Notes under the pieces: model-generated
What the model saw: only the letters and a program-made list of their open reading frames with translations
Database searches by the model: none
Told to the model about the DNA's origin: nothing
In this document: positions 32,236 to 39,116 of the stretch, one piece after another
Layout of the letters: each line of letters opens with the position of its first letter
Numbering within the stretch: position 1 is the first letter of the stretch
Made by a program: the position numbers and the translations under genes
Source: Candidatus Kaiserbacteria bacterium RIFCSPLOWO2_01_FULL_50_24
GTDB taxonomy: Bacteria > Patescibacteriota > Minisyncoccia > Phycocordibacterales > UBA2100
Assembly: GCA_001783335.1 (NCBI GenBank)
Contig: MFLU01000016.1
Coordinates: forward strand, 688-64,687
Direction of reading: 5' to 3'
DNA: 64,000 nt

Positions 32236-33159
32236 ATGAAATTCTCTATCATCGCACCTGTCCGCAACATGGAACCTTGGCTCGCAAAAGCCATTGAGTC
32301 CGTTCTAATACAGGAAGGAGATTTTGAAATTGAATACATTCTCCAAGACGGTGCTTCCACGGACAACACGGTCGCCATTTTTGAATCCTATCGCGAGAAA
32401 CTGGAGCGTGGTGAGATTCCCATACGCTGCAAAAGTATTACGATGCGGAGCTTCTCTGAAAAAGACAACGGACCTTTTGATGCTATCAACAAGGGATTCA
32501 CTCACGCTACGGGTGACATCTATACATGGGCGGATGGCGACAACACGTACGAACCCGGCGCGTTTGATGCAGTCGCTAAAACATTTGTGGCATTTCCTGA
32601 TGTGAAGTGGTTGCACGGCATCACGAACGGCATGAACGAGCGGTGGGAGAAAACTTCCTACGGGGTATGCCGCATATACAAACAGGATTGGCTGCAGCTC
32701 GGTATCTATAGTCAGGAAGCGTACCCAACCTCACAAAATGGAATGTTTTGGCGTCGTAAACTTTGGGAAGAGGTTGCTCCTATCCCCACGAAGTTTCGTG
32801 TGTCCGGCGACTATTGGCTGTGGATGAACATGGCAAAGCACGCCCCCTTGTGGTCGCTGAACGTCCCCATTGGGTATTTTATGCGGCGTGTGGGACAAGC
32901 GCACACGCTCGGCGGATACAAAGAGGAACAGTGGATGGCGCGACCGCGAAGGAGCTTGCGCGCGTGGGGAGCCCGCCTTTTCTTTTCTCCACAATCACGC
33001 CTAGGCCCGCGCTTTGAACACTTCTTCCTATGGCTCTACCCATTCATGTACAGAAACGTAGAGTCAATGATATACATAGATATCGTTGGTGGTGTGCCAG
33101 TCAAGAAAAAGGCAATGACCTATCAGTGCGATCCAAAACATGACAAAACACTGAAATGA
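32236..33159 (+). CDS. GT2-family glycosyltransferase
   Basis: MKFSIIAPVRN...QDGASTDNT... Paralogous to 41768..42676. Confidence 0.65.
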   Translation: MKFSIIAPVRNMEPWLAKAIESVLIQEGDFEIEYILQDGASTDNTVAIFESYREKLERGEIPIRCKSITMRSFSEKDNGPFDAINKGFTHATGDIYTWADGDNTYEPGAFDAVAKTFVAFPDVKWLHGITNGMNERWEKTSYGVCRIYKQDWLQLGIYSQEAYPTSQNGMFWRRKLWEEVAPIPTKFRVSGDYWLWMNMAKHAPLWSLNVPIGYFMRRVGQAHTLGGYKEEQWMARPRRSLRAWGARLFFSPQSRLGPRFEHFFLWLYPFMYRNVESMIYIDIVGGVPVKKKAMTYQCDPKHDKTLK

Positions 33160-33764
33160 AAATGAGAAACTCTATTACATCAGCTATTTCTTCTTCAGTA
33201 GCGGTTAAAGAACGGCTACTGCGAGATGAAAAGTTCATTGGGCGGCTTCTGCTAGCAATAGATATTCTCATAAAAACATTCCGATCTGATAAACGCGTGT
33301 ATCTCTGCGGCAACGGCGGCAGCGCGGCCGACGCGCAACATATAGCAGCCGAGTTCTCAGGGAAGTTTTACCTTGACCGTAAGGCACTTCCTGCCGAAGC
33401 ATTGCACGTCAACACATCATTTCTGACAGCGGTAGCAAATGACTATTCGTATGCAAACACGTTTAAGCGAAATATAGAAGCATTCGGCAGAAAAGGAGAC
33501 GTGCTCATTGGCATTTCTACTTCCGGGAATTCAGATAATATCGTACGGGCGCAAAAAGAAGCGCGCAGACGAGGCATGATGGTAATTTCAATGACAGGAA
33601 AAACGGGCGGCAAACTTGCTAAGTCATGTGATATCCTGCTCAATGTTCCCAGCACCGACACGCCTAGAATCCAAGAGAGTCACATCCTACTTGGTCATAT
33701 CATGGCTGAATGCGTAGAACAGGCACTTTTCGGAAAAAGAAAAAACAAGAAAAAATCAAAGTGA
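33156..33764 (+). CDS. gmhA: D-sedoheptulose 7-phosphate isomerase (SIS domain)
   Basis: VYLCGNGGSAADAQHIAAEF plus GISTSGNS are phosphoheptose isomerase signatures. Confidence 0.8.
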   Translation: MKMRNSITSAISSSVAVKERLLRDEKFIGRLLLAIDILIKTFRSDKRVYLCGNGGSAADAQHIAAEFSGKFYLDRKALPAEALHVNTSFLTAVANDYSYANTFKRNIEAFGRKGDVLIGISTSGNSDNIVRAQKEARRRGMMVISMTGKTGGKLAKSCDILLNVPSTDTPRIQESHILLGHIMAECVEQALFGKRKNKKKSK

Positions 33765-34328
33765 TGGTTCTGTCGCGCGCGCGAATGCAATTAGAGAAGG
33801 ATAGCGCATGTCAACAAAATCGTCTTCCTCCGTACCCACTTCTAGGGATGTGCCGATAAGTACGGTAACCATACCTGCATTTCTGCCAAAGTGCATATCG
33901 CTCATTGAATCACCAACCATGATTGACTTCGCAAAATCTATGTCCGGAAAATCTTTTTGCGCACCATATGCCATCCATAATCCAGGCTTACGCTTTCCTT
34001 CGGTGTCATGTTCCTCTAAAATCGTCGCGGTGTAGATAGCGTGGATGTCTCCGCCGTGCGAGCGGACCTCCCGACACATACACTCATGTATGGTATCTAA
34101 TTCGTATTGCGTCATAATCCCCCTACCCACCCCCTGCTGGTTGCTCACGATAATAATGCGTGCAAAACACCGATTCAAAATGGCGAGCGCTTGGAGTACG
34201 CCATCTAGAAATTCAAATTCATCCAACGTTTTTACATAGTCATCAGGTCGGTATTTGTTGATAACGCCGTCTCGATCAAGAAAGAGTGTCCACGTTTTGT
34301 CTACCGACTGATCAAACATCATACGCAC
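33756..34328 (-). CDS. gmhB: D,D-heptose 1,7-bisphosphate phosphatase (HAD)
   Basis: LFLDRDGVIN HAD motif I, 190 aa. Confidence 0.75.
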   Translation of the reverse strand: MRMMFDQSVDKTWTLFLDRDGVINKYRPDDYVKTLDEFEFLDGVLQALAILNRCFARIIIVSNQQGVGRGIMTQYELDTIHECMCREVRSHGGDIHAIYTATILEEHDTEGKRKPGLWMAYGAQKDFPDIDFAKSIMVGDSMSDMHFGRNAGMVTVLIGTSLEVGTEEDDFVDMRYPSLIAFARATEPSL

Positions 34329-37412: not shown

Positions 37413-38108
37413 TCAACGCTTTTTGCGAGTATTTAGATACCATCCGGACTCGGCGTACGACTCTGGCGTGCCGATATCTAGAAATCCATCTTGATGGACA
37501 TACGCGTACACACCCTGTTTGAGCCATTGCGGGATGAGGTCTTTTTCAAGAGAACATACAGTGCCGTCGGAAACAGAATCAAACAAACTCCTTCTAAGAA
37601 CCGACGTTCCCGCATTGACGAAATCGGAAGCGCCGCTTTTCTCATCAAAAGAATAGATCTTGTGGTCATCGTCAAATGCTACGGCTCCGTATCGGGCACC
37701 TTCTTTCATCGCTACGGCAATCGTCGCGACACCCTTTTTTTCTTGATGAAATTTCATAAGTTCGCCAATTTCCACATCTGAATACGTGTCGCCATTTAGA
37801 ACGATAACGTCATCTCCTGTTGTTAATGGGAGTGCGTGTTTGATCGCACCACCTGTGCCGAGTGGCGACTCTTCGTGCGAAAATACAATTGGAAAATGAT
37901 AATGCGTATAGGCGTGCCTCTCTTTAATGGACTCCGCGCTATATCCAACCGTCAAGACCACATTACCGATATGCGGAAAACGGTCAAGACATTCCAGTAA
38001 CGCGTCAAGAAACGGTCGGCCGTTCACTGGAGCAAGCGGTTTCGGAACATCAGATACAACACTTCTCAATCTAGTGCCCAAACCTCCGGCTAAAATAATC
38101 GCGTCCAT
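37413..38108 (-). CDS. hddC: Sugar-phosphate nucleotidyltransferase (D-glycero-alpha-D-manno-heptose-1-phosphate guanylyltransferase-like)
   Basis: MDAIILAGGLGTRLRS... NTP_transferase. Genomic context with hddA/gmhA/gmhB. Confidence 0.65.
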   Translation of the reverse strand: MDAIILAGGLGTRLRSVVSDVPKPLAPVNGRPFLDALLECLDRFPHIGNVVLTVGYSAESIKERHAYTHYHFPIVFSHEESPLGTGGAIKHALPLTTGDDVIVLNGDTYSDVEIGELMKFHQEKKGVATIAVAMKEGARYGAVAFDDDHKIYSFDEKSGASDFVNAGTSVLRRSLFDSVSDGTVCSLEKDLIPQWLKQGVYAYVHQDGFLDIGTPESYAESGWYLNTRKKR

Positions 38109-38114
38109 GAGGAA

Positions 38115-39116
38115 CTATTCATCCTTATGGATAATTCGTGAACCCTCCTTTTCAAAAGAGAAGTTTACTTCAAGATGATCTCCAAGCGCTTTCCTAACGG
38201 CCGCTTGTTTCTCCTGCGGCACGAGAAAGAAAATAAACCCTCCACTTCCGGCTCCAGCAAGTTTGCCGCCGTATGCACCTTGCGCCATGGCGCGCGCATA
38301 CATTTCATCAATACGGTCGTTCGTGATTTTCGCCGAAAGTGACTTCTTCAGCCGCCACGCTTCATGTAAGAGTGCTCCAAGTTTGCAGACCATTGTTTCG
38401 GGTGGCTCGTGTGCAATAATTTTCTCGGCATCAAAAACCATTTGGTACATGGTGCGCAAATGCGTGTCGTTGTCGCCCGACCTTGTCTTCTCTATTTGTT
38501 CAACCAATATCTCTGGAGCAAGGCGGGTCAGTCCCGTATAGAAAATGGTGAGGGATTTTTCAAGGAGCGCTAACTTTTCCTCTGTGATTGGAACAGGCCG
38601 CACCGCAACACTGTCTTTTGAAAATTCAATGATATTTAATCCTCCGTGTGCGGCATGCATTTGATCCTGTGAACCGACGTGTTCCTTGATTAAATTCTGT
38701 TCAATATGAATGGCGTCAAGCGCGCGCTGATGTTTTGTCACTTCTTTTTTCAGAAGTGCATGGAGAGAATTCAATAATCCTACGGTGAATGCCGACGACG
38801 ATCCGAGACCAGTTTGTGCAGGCAAATCAGCAAAGATATGAATATCTAAATTACCATCAATCTGAAGAAACTTTAGCGTCTCACGCACGCTTGGATGTAT
38901 GATTTCATCTACATTCTTCACTAACTCCGCACGCGAGTACCCGACACGAATTCTATGATCAAAGAATTCGCTCAATCTACTAACGCTTACATAAATATAT
39001 TTATTAATCGTCGTACCGAGCACAGCGCCTTTGGCCCCGTTAAAATAGACGGGGTAGTCGGTGCCTCCGCCAAAAAAGCTCAATCTAAGGGGTGTTTTAG
39101 AGATAATCATAACCAC
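38115..39116 (-). CDS. hddA: GHMP sugar kinase (D-glycero-alpha-D-manno-heptose 7-phosphate kinase-like)
   Basis: PLRLSFFGGGTDYP...GLGSSSA GHMP motifs. Confidence 0.7.
   Translation of the reverse strand: MVMIISKTPLRLSFFGGGTDYPVYFNGAKGAVLGTTINKYIYVSVSRLSEFFDHRIRVGYSRAELVKNVDEIIHPSVRETLKFLQIDGNLDIHIFADLPAQTGLGSSSAFTVGLLNSLHALLKKEVTKHQRALDAIHIEQNLIKEHVGSQDQMHAAHGGLNIIEFSKDSVAVRPVPITEEKLALLEKSLTIFYTGLTRLAPEILVEQIEKTRSGDNDTHLRTMYQMVFDAEKIIAHEPPETMVCKLGALLHEAWRLKKSLSAKITNDRIDEMYARAMAQGAYGGKLAGAGSGGFIFFLVPQEKQAAVRKALGDHLEVNFSFEKEGSRIIHKDE

What the first reader, a model, noticed from the sequence alone, without database searches (positions are those of the whole stretch)
33156..39116. Complete GDP-D-glycero-D-manno-heptose pathway embedded with a TylC3-type C-methyltransferase and two SDR enzymes: possible C-branched or deoxy-heptose
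gmhA (33156..33764), gmhB (33756..34328), hddC-like nucleotidyltransferase (37413..38108) and hddA GHMP kinase (38115..39116) are contiguous. They flank two extended-SDR epimerase/dehydratases and a zinc-ribbon NDP-sugar C-methyltransferase (35240..36460). C-methyltransferases of this family normally act on 4-keto-6-deoxy-hexoses in antibiotic sugars. Placement inside a heptose operon hints at a C-methylated and/or 6-deoxy heptose in the surface glycan, which would be an unusual sugar.
Basis: partly seen in the sequence, partly recalled or inferred. Interest (0 to 1): 0.6.

Follow-up and report, generated by a model that had tools for sequence, protein, structure and literature searches.

The report
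Predicted C-methyl-heptose sugar pathway
A small bacterium of the candidate phyla radiation carries a compact seven-gene set that most likely builds an activated seven-carbon sugar with an extra carbon-linked methyl branch, a sugar not found in the searched literature, and the same gene set recurs in at least twelve other phyla.

Summary
All seven ORFs exist at the stated coordinates with the stated domains. Six form a tightly packed minus-strand operon (hddA-hddC-SDR1-MT-SDR2-gmhB), and gmhA converges on it.

SDR1 is not a dehydratase. [quoted passage not shown] A 6-deoxy sugar is therefore not supported. SDR2 resembles GDP-fucose synthase and keeps that enzyme's Cys/His epimerisation dyad. 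The methyltransferase (MT) has the full TylC3/TcaB9 architecture and the conserved catalytic residues.

The strongest evidence is synteny. Of 48 genome loci that hold an MT relative (55-62% identity) with at least 5 kb on both sides:
- 37 have SDR2, usually directly downstream
- 29 have a Cj1427-like SDR1
- 29 have hddA
- 4 have a Gmd-like gene

These loci span at least twelve phyla.

The most likely product is a GDP-3-C-methyl-heptose that keeps its C6 hydroxyl; its stereochemistry is unknown. I found no description of such a sugar or pathway. One caveat is that a clade member in a Lachnospiraceae MAG sits in a dTDP-mycarose-type cluster, so the substrate here is inferred from context only. 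I rate it a new variant of a known kind.

The parts
38115..39116 (-). hddA: GHMP kinase, D-glycero-D-manno-heptose 7-phosphate 1-kinase (alpha-anomer route). First gene of the operon.
   Evidence: PF00288 and PF08544. Best NCBIfam hit is HddA NF049969, E 1.9e-46, 159 bits, below the cut-off of 600. The GLGSSSA motif is visible in the translation. Homologs at 36-65% identity lie near the MT in 29 of 48 full-flank loci.
37413..38108 (-). hddC: heptose 1-phosphate guanylyltransferase.
   Evidence: PF00483. Best NCBIfam hit is HddC NF049965, E 3e-50, 170.9 bits, below the cut-off of 300. The GGLGTRL motif is present. It starts 6 nt after the end of hddA.
36464..37393 (-). [quoted passage not shown] It makes the 4-keto intermediate and is not a 4,6-dehydratase.
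   Evidence: PDB 6VO6/6VO8 at E 1.8e-131 over the full length; 63.2% identity. The 6VO6 chain is 96% identical to a 313-aa C. jejuni cluster. It has the Thr and the Y-x3-K motif, and Ser at the position of Gmd Glu135. The function of Cj1427 is taken from PMC10680097 and PMC7949155.
35240..36460 (-). MT: TylC3/TcaB9-type SAM-dependent NDP-4-keto-sugar C-methyltransferase. Its predicted substrate here is GDP-4-keto-heptose.
   Evidence: PF08421, PF13489 and PF08484. PDB hits are MtmC 4RV9 at 2e-73, KijD1 at 1e-59 and TcaB9 at 5e-57, at 31-35% identity. The four zinc-ribbon Cys residues (C7, C10, C49, C52) and the DIGSNDG motif are invariant. H176, Y217, E219 and H220 align with TcaB9 H181, Y222, E224 and H225 and are conserved in 81 of 81 clade members.
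34329..35243 (-). SDR2: GDP-L-fucose-synthase-like 4-ketoreductase that retains the epimerase dyad. Its start overlaps the MT stop by 4 nt.
   Evidence: Best NCBIfam hit is GDPFucSynFcl at 2.5e-36, but 125.7 bits against a cut-off of 500. PDB GFS hits reach E 1e-30. Alignment to E. coli Fcl (L081) places T102, C104, Y129, K133 and H172 at Fcl S107, C109, Y136, K140 and H179. Across 59 homologs Cys is kept in 57 and His in 59. It lies directly downstream of the MT in 53 of 80 loci.
33756..34328 (-). gmhB: heptose 1,7-bisphosphate 7-phosphatase. Last gene of the operon.
   Evidence: HAD-IIIA family. Best NCBIfam hit is GmhB PRK08942 at 4.2e-34, 117.7 bits, below the cut-off of 178. The DRDGV motif is present. 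There is a 0-nt gap after SDR2.
33156..33764 (+). gmhA: sedoheptulose 7-phosphate isomerase. It is the last gene of the convergent plus-strand GT/methyltransferase operon.
   Evidence: SIS_2 at 1.2e-27. GmhA equivalog models hit at 2e-61 and 4e-59 (199 bits against a cut-off of 209). Its start overlaps the stop of the upstream GT2 ORF. The same convergent arrangement is seen in L082.
39194..40267 (-). GT4 glycosyltransferase, 77 nt upstream of hddA on the same strand. It is a candidate transferase for the modified heptose, but this assignment is weak.
   Evidence: PF00534 and PF13692. No homolog was found in the 80 related loci, so it is not part of the conserved cassette.

Best explanation
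The region encodes a self-contained pathway to a GDP-activated, C-methyl-branched heptose that keeps its C6 hydroxyl. Steps:

1. [quoted passage not shown] This is inferred from best-hit homology and from the set being complete.
2. [quoted passage not shown] By analogy with Cj1427 it probably re-oxidises its bound NADH with alpha-ketoglutarate. This is inferred from 63% identity to the characterised enzyme.
3. The TylC3/TcaB9-type methyltransferase removes the proton alpha to the 4-keto group and transfers a methyl from SAM. The most likely site is C3, giving a tertiary alcohol. The substrate is inferred from operon position and conserved synteny. The position is inferred from the characterised relatives.
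4. SDR2, a GDP-fucose-synthase-like enzyme that keeps the Cys/His dyad, reduces C4 with NAD(P)H and may first epimerise C5. The product would be a GDP-3-C-methyl-heptose of unknown configuration. This step is inferred.
5. A glycosyltransferase of the surrounding ~50-kb island then adds the sugar to a surface glycan of this Kaiserbacteria (CPR) cell. This step is speculative.
For: - ORFs, domains and motifs are as stated. The operon is translationally coupled, with gaps of 6, 19, 3, -4 and 0 nt.
- SDR1 matches PDB 6VO6 at E 1.8e-131 and 63% identity. That chain is a C. jejuni protein. Cj1427 chemistry is described in PMC10680097 and PMC7949155.
- SDR1 and Cj1427 both have Ser where Gmd has its catalytic Glu135.
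- The MT has the full three-domain architecture, and H176, Y217, E219 and H220 are invariant.
- SDR2 keeps the GFS catalytic triad and the C/H dyad. The reductase-only C. jejuni enzymes have Y/R or T/H at those positions instead (PMC7949155).
- No RmlC-type cupin was found in the window, and only 6 of 80 loci have one.
- Synteny among 48 full-flank loci: SDR2 in 37, Cj1427-like in 29, hddA in 29, both of the last two in 26, Gmd-like in 4. MT-SDR2 adjacency occurs in 53 of 80 loci.
- The operon is identical in an 85% relative and the same gene set occurs in a 65% relative.
- Clustering of neighbouring ORFs found no other widely shared component.
Against: - There is no biochemical evidence for any step.
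- All four heptose-pathway proteins and SDR2 score below NCBIfam equivalog cut-offs.
- The MT clade is not exclusive to heptose loci. L055 (Lachnospiraceae, 58% identity) lies in a dTDP-2,6-dideoxyhexose (mycarose-type) cluster. Ten of the 48 full-flank loci, mostly unicellular cyanobacteria, show no heptose genes within 10 kb.
- The window holds other potential 4-keto sugar sources: Gmd at 6728-7705 and an RfbH-like enzyme at 15676-17076.
- C3 versus C5 methylation and all stereochemistry are unresolved.
- The TcaB9 Tyr76 position is His in this clade.
- That PDB 6VO6 is Cj1427 rests on my memory plus the C. jejuni match. The tool did not give the entry title.
Confidence: 0.65

Rival explanations
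1. The MT and SDR2 act on GDP-4-keto-6-deoxy-D-mannose made by the Gmd at 6728-7705. The product would be a 6-deoxy-3-C-methyl-hexose of the virenose or evalose type. The heptose genes would make an unrelated, unmethylated or only epimerised heptose.
For: A genuine Gmd is present in the window (PF16363 9.6e-118; TIGR01472 391 bits against a cut-off of 415). SDR2 resembles GDP-fucose synthase, whose natural substrate is the Gmd product. The proposed Coxiella virenose route uses exactly Gmd, a TylCIII-like MT and GMER (PMC3539893).
Against: Gmd lies 28 kb away in another operon and has its own adjacent SDR at 7770-8768. Across phyla the MT-SDR2 pair travels with a Cj1427-like gene or hddA (32 of 48 loci) and not with Gmd (4 of 48). 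The MT sits between SDR1 and SDR2 with a 3-nt gap and a 4-nt overlap.
Confidence: 0.1
2. The pathway runs as in the best explanation, but the MT methylates C5 (NovU-like) instead of C3. The product would be a 5-C-methyl heptose, and SDR2 would epimerise C3 and reduce C4.
For: C5 is also alpha to the 4-keto group. From my own knowledge, C5-methyltransferases of noviose biosynthesis share this family architecture. The clade is only 31-35% identical to the characterised C3 enzymes and differs at the TcaB9 Tyr76 position. SDR2 keeps a dyad that can epimerise either C3 or C5.
Against: All solved relatives that the search found are C3-methyltransferases. In a heptose, C5 carries the bulky C6-C7 diol side chain. 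A clade member (L055) sits in a mycarose-type cluster, which is 3-C-methyl chemistry.
Confidence: 0.12
3. The product is a 6-deoxy heptose, with or without C-methylation, because one of the SDRs is a GDP-heptose 4,6-dehydratase.
For: Both SDRs give weak PF16363 (GDP_Man_Dehyd) hits. 6-Deoxyheptose pathways are known in Campylobacter, Yersinia and Burkholderia (PMC10680097).
Against: SDR1 is 63% identical to the C4-dehydrogenase Cj1427, not to DdahA- or Gmd-type dehydratases, and it lacks the dehydration Glu. SDR2 is of the GFS type. The operon contains no Gmd-like gene.
Confidence: 0.05
4. The MT does not C-methylate the heptose at all. It might act on another NDP-sugar of the island, or as a ketoreductase or other activity as reported for MtmC. 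The operon would then simply make an epimeric heptose through SDR1 and SDR2, as in C. jejuni.
For: SDR1 plus a reductase alone suffice for epimeric heptoses in C. jejuni (PMC10680097). MtmC, the closest solved relative, is described as bifunctional (PMC3539893). L055 shows that the clade is used with other sugars.
Against: The SAM motif and the catalytic His/Glu/Tyr residues are invariant. The MT is the most constant partner of SDR2 and of the heptose genes. An operon position between the oxidase and the reductase is what a 4-keto-dependent tailoring step would need.
Confidence: 0.05

Closest known systems
Campylobacter jejuni HS:2 heptose-modification pathway: Cj1423-1425/GmhA/GmhB, then Cj1427 (MlghA) C4-dehydrogenase, Cj1430 cupin C3/C5-epimerase and Cj1428 C4-reductase
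   Same: [quoted passage not shown] SDR1 is 63% identical to the Cj1427 structure. The logic is the same: oxidise C4, tailor the activated positions next to the keto group, then reduce C4.
   Different: The tailoring enzyme here is a SAM-dependent C-methyltransferase, not a cupin epimerase. The reductase is much closer to true GDP-fucose synthase (E 1e-30) than to the chains I believe are C. jejuni heptose reductases (7anh and 8ewu, E ~1e-13; the tool labels them only 'GDP-L-fucose synthase'). It also keeps the Cys/His epimerase dyad that MlghC and DdahC lack. No C-methylation is described in the C. jejuni pathways (one search found 0 occurrences of 'methyltransferase' in the review).
TylC3 / EryBIII / MtmC / KijD1 / TcaB9 dTDP-4-keto-sugar 3-C-methyltransferases of antibiotic deoxysugar pathways
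   Same: The three-domain architecture is the same: a zinc ribbon, a class I methyltransferase domain and a C-terminal PF08484 domain. The His and Tyr-x-Glu-His catalytic residues are conserved.
   Different: Identity is only 31-35%. The window enzyme belongs to a separate, tight clade on a long branch. That clade is found mostly in surface-glycan loci of non-actinobacterial phyla and next to GDP-heptose genes. It has His at the TcaB9 Tyr76 position. The predicted substrate is a GDP-linked, non-deoxy heptose.
Proposed GDP route to virenose (6-deoxy-3-C-methylgulose) in Coxiella burnetii: Gmd, then CBU_0691 (TylCIII-like), then GMER
   Same: A GDP-sugar is made 4-keto, C3-methylated by a TylCIII-family enzyme and finished by a GDP-fucose-synthase-like epimerase/reductase in a surface glycan (PMC3539893).
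   Different: The Coxiella sugar is a hexose, and its keto group is made by a 4,6-dehydratase, so the sugar is 6-deoxy. Here the sugar is a heptose oxidised by a Cj1427-type dehydrogenase, so C6-OH is retained. The Coxiella pathway is itself only an in-silico proposal.
[quoted passage not shown]
   Same: The same four-enzyme route is present in an organism without LPS. From my own knowledge, the best NCBIfam hits to HddA and HddC models derive from this family.
   Different: That pathway stops at the unmodified GDP-heptose. Here three tailoring genes are inserted between hddC and gmhB.

Membership tests
TylC3/TcaB9-type NDP-sugar C-methyltransferase (PF08421 + class I MT + PF08484) | N-terminal four-Cys zinc ribbon (PF08421) | tested here: met
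   PF08421 at 7.5e-21. C7, C10, C49 and C52 are invariant in 20 homologs. C7 and C10 align with the first Cys pair of TcaB9, KijD1 and MtmC.
TylC3/TcaB9-type NDP-sugar C-methyltransferase (PF08421 + class I MT + PF08484) | SAM-binding class I fold followed by the C-terminal PF08484 domain | tested here: met
   PF13489 at 2e-13 and PF08484 at 4.5e-48, covering profile positions 1-159 of 160. The DIGSNDG motif is invariant.
TylC3/TcaB9-type NDP-sugar C-methyltransferase (PF08421 + class I MT + PF08484) | Active-site residues studied in TcaB9: Tyr76, His181, Tyr222, Glu224 and His225 (numbering from my memory of Bruender & Holden; the PDB chain index is +2) | tested here: inconclusive
   H176, Y217, E219 and H220 match and are conserved in 81 of 81 clade members. 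The Tyr76 position is His70 in 79 of 81. Four of five are therefore met and one is substituted across the clade.
TylC3/TcaB9-type NDP-sugar C-methyltransferase (PF08421 + class I MT + PF08484) | Substrate is an NDP-4-keto sugar methylated at a carbon alpha to the keto group | not testable with these tools
   Only context is available. The gene lies between a C4-dehydrogenase and a 4-ketoreductase, and this synteny is conserved.
Cj1427 (MlghA)-type GDP-heptose C4-dehydrogenase | Close full-length sequence relationship to the characterised enzyme or structure | tested here: met
   PDB 6VO6 at E 1.8e-131, covering residues 2-308 of 309, at 63.2% identity. The next PDB hit is only 4.5e-24. The 6VO6 chain is 96% identical to a C. 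jejuni 313-aa cluster.
Cj1427 (MlghA)-type GDP-heptose C4-dehydrogenase | SDR Thr/Tyr/Lys catalytic residues present, and the dehydratase acid/base Glu (Gmd Glu135) absent | tested here: met
   NTNSGYG and YGKQK in the window match NTNSGYG and YGIDK in 6VO6. Ser aligns with E. coli Gmd Glu135 in both.
Cj1427 (MlghA)-type GDP-heptose C4-dehydrogenase | Tightly bound NADH re-oxidised by alpha-ketoglutarate (ping-pong mechanism) | not testable with these tools
   This property is described for Cj1427 in PMC10680097. No sequence signature for it is known to me.
GDP-L-fucose synthase (GFS/GMER/Fcl) family | Ser/Thr-Tyr-Lys reduction triad together with the Cys109/His179 epimerisation dyad | tested here: met
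   T102, Y129, K133, C104 and H172 align with the E. coli Fcl residues. The Cys is kept in 57 of 59 homologs and the His in 59 of 59. Residue roles are from PMC7949155.
GDP-L-fucose synthase (GFS/GMER/Fcl) family | Orthology to Fcl, meaning a score above the NCBIfam equivalog cut-off | tested here: not met
   NF047922 scores 125.7 bits against a cut-off of 500. Identity to E. coli Fcl is 78 of 301 aligned positions, or 26%. It works like a GFS but is not an Fcl ortholog.
[quoted passage not shown] | All four enzymes present and assignable | tested here: inconclusive
   The best NCBIfam hit of each ORF is the expected enzyme (E 2e-61, 1.9e-46, 4.2e-34 and 3e-50). Every score is below the curated cut-off (207 vs 320, 159 vs 600, 118 vs 178, 171 vs 300). 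The set is complete, clustered and conserved.
GDP-6-deoxy-heptose pathways (DdahA / WcbK / DmhA type) | A Gmd-like GDP-heptose 4,6-dehydratase in the cassette | tested here: not met
   Neither SDR of the operon is Gmd-like. The only Gmd in the window is at 6728-7705.

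The most novel reading that the evidence does not exclude
A previously undescribed monosaccharide class, a C-methyl-branched (probably 3-C-methyl) D-glycero-heptose donated from GDP, is made by a conserved cassette of five to seven genes (HddA/HddC, a Cj1427-type oxidase, a TylC3-type methyltransferase and a GFS-type epimerase/reductase). This sugar would decorate the surface glycans of organisms in at least twelve phyla, including Cyanobacteria, the PVC superphylum, Nitrospirota, Bacteroidota, CPR bacteria and DPANN archaea.
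Probability: 0.55. Interest if true: 0.7.

Novelty: new variant of a known kind. Interest (0 to 1): 0.62.

Why it matters
If the prediction holds, it adds a new branched-chain heptose to the known bacterial sugar repertoire. It would also give the first C-methyltransferase known to act on a GDP-heptose.

It would show that Cj1427-type C4 oxidation is a widespread entry point for heptose diversification well beyond Campylobacter. It would also supply enzymes for making unnatural heptoses in the laboratory.

The cassette occurs in cultured Cyanobacteria, Bacteroidota and Verrucomicrobiota, so the prediction can be tested directly.

For CPR biology, it shows that an organism I would expect to have a small genome (my own knowledge of CPR bacteria) devotes a ~50-kb island to an elaborate surface glycan. 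That is relevant to how these episymbionts interact with hosts and phages.

Tried and rejected
- **Literature.** Searches for C-methyltransferase + heptose + GDP, C-methyl + heptose + polysaccharide, 3-C-methyl + heptose, TylC3/TcaB9 + heptose, and several spellings of 'C-methyl-heptose' found nothing relevant. The library holds only open-access papers, so absence is not proof.
- **PDB 6VO6 in papers.** I tried to confirm the identity of 6VO6 from papers. The two Cj1427 papers and the bifunctional epimerase/reductase paper are not held, and a search for '6VO6' gave only irrelevant hits. I settled for showing that the chain is 96% identical to a C. jejuni 313-aa SDR cluster, plus my memory of the deposition.
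- **A heptose-specific subclade.** I asked whether heptose-context MTs form a subclade separate from the others. In a neighbour-joining tree they do not. L055 (dTDP context) and the 'MT alone' cyanobacterial loci are nested among heptose-context sequences. Substrate therefore cannot be read from the MT sequence.
- **Additional conserved genes.** I looked for a conserved extra gene such as a cupin epimerase or a dedicated glycosyltransferase. ORF clustering of the 80 loci found none beyond MT, SDR2, SDR1, hddA, hddC, gmhA and gmhB. An RmlC-like cupin occurs in only 6 loci.
- **The 6-deoxy reading** is rejected.
- **Not attempted.** I did not run structure prediction or fold search, because they would not resolve substrate or regiochemistry.

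Full report
**1. The observation**

Six lie on the minus strand in the order hddA (39116-38115), hddC (38108-37413), SDR1 (37393-36464), MT (36460-35240), SDR2 (35243-34329) and gmhB (34328-33756). The gaps between them are 6, 19, 3, -4 and 0 nt, so this is a translationally coupled operon.

gmhA (33156-33764) is on the plus strand. It is the last gene of a convergent operon of glycosyltransferases and methyltransferases, and it overlaps the 3' end of gmhB by 9 nt.

The MT has PF08421, a class I methyltransferase domain and PF08484. Both SDRs match PF01370. The other four are SIS, HAD-IIIA, NTP_transferase and GHMP kinase.

The best NCBIfam hit of each heptose-pathway ORF is GmhA, GmhB, HddC or HddA as expected. 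All scores are below the curated equivalog cut-offs.

The window comes from Candidatus Kaiserbacteria bacterium RIFCSPHIGHO2_01_FULL_50_13, a CPR/Patescibacteria genome (100% matches). That origin explains the low scores.

**2. What the two SDRs are**

SDR1 is not a generic epimerase/dehydratase.
- It matches PDB 6VO6/6VO8 at E 1.8e-131 over its whole length. The next PDB hit is only 4.5e-24.
- Identity to the 6VO6 chain is 63.2%.
- The 6VO6 chain is 96% identical to a 313-aa SDR cluster of Campylobacter jejuni.
- From my own knowledge, 6VO6/6VO8 are the structures of Cj1427. I could not retrieve the primary papers.

[quoted passage not shown] It recycles its tightly bound NADH with alpha-ketoglutarate (PMC10680097; PMC7949155).

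When SDR1 and the 6VO6 chain are aligned with real E. coli Gmd (fetched as L081), both keep the Thr and the Tyr-x3-Lys motif. Both have Ser where Gmd has its dehydration residue Glu135. The operon therefore has a C4-dehydrogenase and no 4,6-dehydratase.

SDR2 most resembles GDP-L-fucose synthase (NCBIfam 2.5e-36; PDB GFS hits at 1e-30). It is not an Fcl ortholog, scoring 125.7 bits against a cut-off of 500 and sharing 26% identity with E. coli Fcl.

Aligned to E. coli Fcl, SDR2 keeps the reduction triad (T102, Y129, K133). It also keeps the Cys109/His179 pair (C104, H172), which in GFS is the base/acid dyad for C3 and C5 epimerisation. Across 59 SDR2 homologs the Cys is kept in 57 and the His in all 59 (residue roles from PMC7949155).

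The reductase-only C. jejuni enzymes MlghC and DdahC have Tyr/Arg and Thr/His at these positions.

No RmlC-type cupin epimerase was found among the window ORFs I scanned. Only 6 of the 80 related loci have one. SDR2 may therefore both epimerise (C5, since C3 becomes quaternary after methylation) and reduce C4. This is an inference.

**3. The methyltransferase**

The closest solved relatives are the 3-C-methyltransferases MtmC (4RV9, 2e-73), KijD1 (1e-59) and TcaB9 (5e-57), at 31-35% identity.

The four zinc-ribbon cysteines and the DIGSNDG SAM motif are invariant. H176, Y217, E219 and H220 align with TcaB9 H181, Y222, E224 and H225 and are conserved in 81 of 81 clade members. The TcaB9 Tyr76 position is His in 79 of 81.

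The window enzyme belongs to a very large, tight clade. Members are about 400 aa long and 55-65% identical across phyla. A long branch separates this clade from the actinomycete antibiotic enzymes.

**4. Which sugar does it methylate? Comparative genomics**

I fetched 80 genome loci encoding MT relatives at 55-62% identity, each with up to 10 kb of flank. I then searched them with the window's proteins.

Among the 48 loci with at least 5 kb on both sides:

| Gene near the MT | Loci (of 48) |
|---|---|
| SDR2 homolog (50-67% identity) | 37 |
| Cj1427-like SDR1 (45-68% identity) | 29 |
| hddA | 29 |
| Both SDR1 and hddA | 26 |
| Either SDR1 or hddA | 32 |
| hddC | 25 |
| gmhA | 12 |
| gmhB | 8 |
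| Gmd-like (at least 40% identity) | 4 |

In 53 of all 80 loci, SDR2 lies directly downstream of the MT on the same strand.

Carriers include:
- Cyanobacteria: Nostocaceae, Calothrix, Pseudanabaena
- Verrucomicrobiota: Opitutaceae, Oleiharenicola, Kiritimatiellae
- Planctomycetota, Chlamydiota, Nitrospirota and Acidobacteriota
- Bacteroidota: Taibaiella koreensis, Chitinophagaceae
- Pseudomonadota, Gemmatimonadota and Poribacteria
- Other Patescibacteria, and a Micrarchaeia archaeon

A Kaiserbacteria-like relative at 85% MT identity has the identical operon, including the convergent gmhA. A 65% relative has the same gene set in another order.

Clustering all neighbouring ORFs found no further widely shared component. 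The conserved cassette is therefore MT, SDR2, the Cj1427-like oxidase, HddA and HddC, with GmhA and GmhB in some loci.

An SAM-dependent, 4-keto-dependent tailoring enzyme sits between the enzyme that makes the 4-keto-heptose and the enzyme that removes the keto group. I take that position as the strongest available evidence that the heptose is the substrate.

**5. Caveats**

The clade is not exclusively tied to heptose.
- In a Lachnospiraceae MAG (L055) a 58%-identical MT lies in a classical dTDP-2,6-dideoxyhexose cluster. That cluster has an NDP-hexose 2,3-dehydratase, a GFO/IDH/MocA reductase, an RmlC-like epimerase and an SDR.
- Ten full-flank loci, mostly unicellular cyanobacteria, have no heptose genes within 10 kb. 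In the tree these loci are nested among the heptose-context cyanobacterial sequences.
- Substrate therefore cannot be read from the MT sequence alone.

The window also holds other sources of 4-keto sugars. These are a true Gmd at 6728-7705 and an RfbH-like PLP enzyme at 15676-17076 with SDR partners. It remains possible, but it is disfavoured by distance, by operon structure and by the cross-phylum statistics.

Methylation at C3 is assumed from the solved relatives. C5 (NovU-type chemistry) is not excluded. The stereochemistry is unknown.

**6. Most likely mechanism**

1. [quoted passage not shown]
2. SDR1 oxidises C4.
3. The MT forms the enolate and transfers a methyl group from SAM to C3.
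4. SDR2 possibly epimerises C5 and then reduces C4.
5. The product is a GDP-3-C-methyl-heptose that retains the C6 hydroxyl.
6. One of the many glycosyltransferases of the island transfers it to a glycan. The GT4 directly upstream (39194-40267) is a weak candidate, because it is not conserved in other loci.

I put about 0.65 on this explanation. The rivals are hexose methylation (0.10), C5 methylation (0.12), a 6-deoxy product (0.05) and an MT unrelated to the heptose (0.05).

**7. Comparison with known systems and novelty**

The cassette is a hybrid of two known systems.
- One is the C. jejuni Cj1427-initiated heptose-modification logic.
- The other is the TylC3-type C-methylation of antibiotic deoxysugars.

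The nearest GDP-sugar precedent is the proposed Gmd / TylCIII-like / GMER route to virenose in Coxiella. That route is itself only an in-silico proposal (PMC3539893).

Five literature searches found no report of a C-methyl-branched heptose or of a C-methyltransferase in a GDP-heptose pathway. The searchable library is open-access only, so this is not proof of absence.

Cj1427-like genes elsewhere are combined with other tailoring enzymes. In Desulfosarcina ovata they sit with two B12-radical-SAM genes and a distal PF08421/PF08484 MT. In a Bacillota MAG they sit next to an SLH-domain protein. Heptose C4 oxidation thus looks like a general hub for diversification.

I classify the finding as a new variant of a known kind. 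It is a well-supported, testable prediction of a new nucleotide sugar that is widespread in uncultured and some cultured lineages. Interest is 0.62.

Noticed in passing
window 2449-53605: Almost the whole stretch is a single ~50-kb glycan-biosynthesis island in a CPR (Kaiserbacteria) genome. It holds at least 12 glycosyltransferases, a Wzx-like flippase (5022-6281), two AsnB-like amidotransferases (11953-13827 and 25247-27118), several methyltransferases and a GtrA-methyltransferase fusion (22233-23456). From my own knowledge of CPR bacteria this would be a large share of a small genome.
   Followed up: partly
window 27069-28572; 8768-9559; 46778-47710: The UDP-glucose/GDP-mannose dehydrogenase-family genes look split or truncated. 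The N-terminal and central domains (27541-28572) and the C-terminal domain (27069-27638) are separate ORFs that overlap. Two other copies lack the first ~60-70 profile positions. This could reflect frameshifts, pseudogenes or mis-set starts.
   Followed up: no
window 6728-8768 and 14648-18024: Separate deoxyhexose modules are present. One is a true Gmd (6728-7705) with an adjacent SDR. The other is a GT11 fucosyltransferase-like gene (14648-15715) followed by an RfbH-like PLP-dependent dehydratase (15676-17076) and an SDR (17086-18024). Together they suggest a 6-deoxy or 3,6-dideoxy sugar in the same glycan.
   Followed up: partly
window 53661-56973: A ComEA-like HHH_3 + PKD protein ORF (53661-55691) and a TraG/VirD4-like coupling-protein ORF (55072-56973) lie on the same strand. 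As listed they overlap by about 600 nt, so the start of the downstream ORF is probably mis-set. This looks like DNA-uptake or transfer machinery next to the glycan island.
   Followed up: no
L055 3-10366 (Lachnospiraceae MAG JAQUYA010000032.1): An MT of the same tight clade (58% identical to the window MT) sits in a dTDP-mycarose-type cluster. The cluster has a 2,3-dehydratase (PF03559), a GFO/IDH/MocA reductase, an RmlC-like epimerase and an SDR. The clade is therefore used with different nucleotide sugars.
   Followed up: partly
L083 6286-16942 (Desulfosarcina ovata AP021879.1): hddA, hddC and a Cj1427-like gene are followed by another SDR, two B12-binding radical-SAM genes, Wzx, two glycosyltransferases and then a PF08421/PF08484 methyltransferase. 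This may be a further, more elaborate heptose-tailoring variant.
   Followed up: no
L001 4621-5943 and other loci: In several related loci the HddC-like nucleotidyltransferase and the GmhB-like phosphatase cluster together as one long ORF of about 440 aa. This suggests HddC-GmhB fusion proteins.
   Followed up: no
window 35240-36460 (MT residue His70): The position equivalent to TcaB9 Tyr76, an active-site residue conserved as Tyr in TcaB9, KijD1 and MtmC, is His in 79 of 81 members of this MT clade. This may be a clade-specific change in how the sugar is bound.
   Followed up: partly
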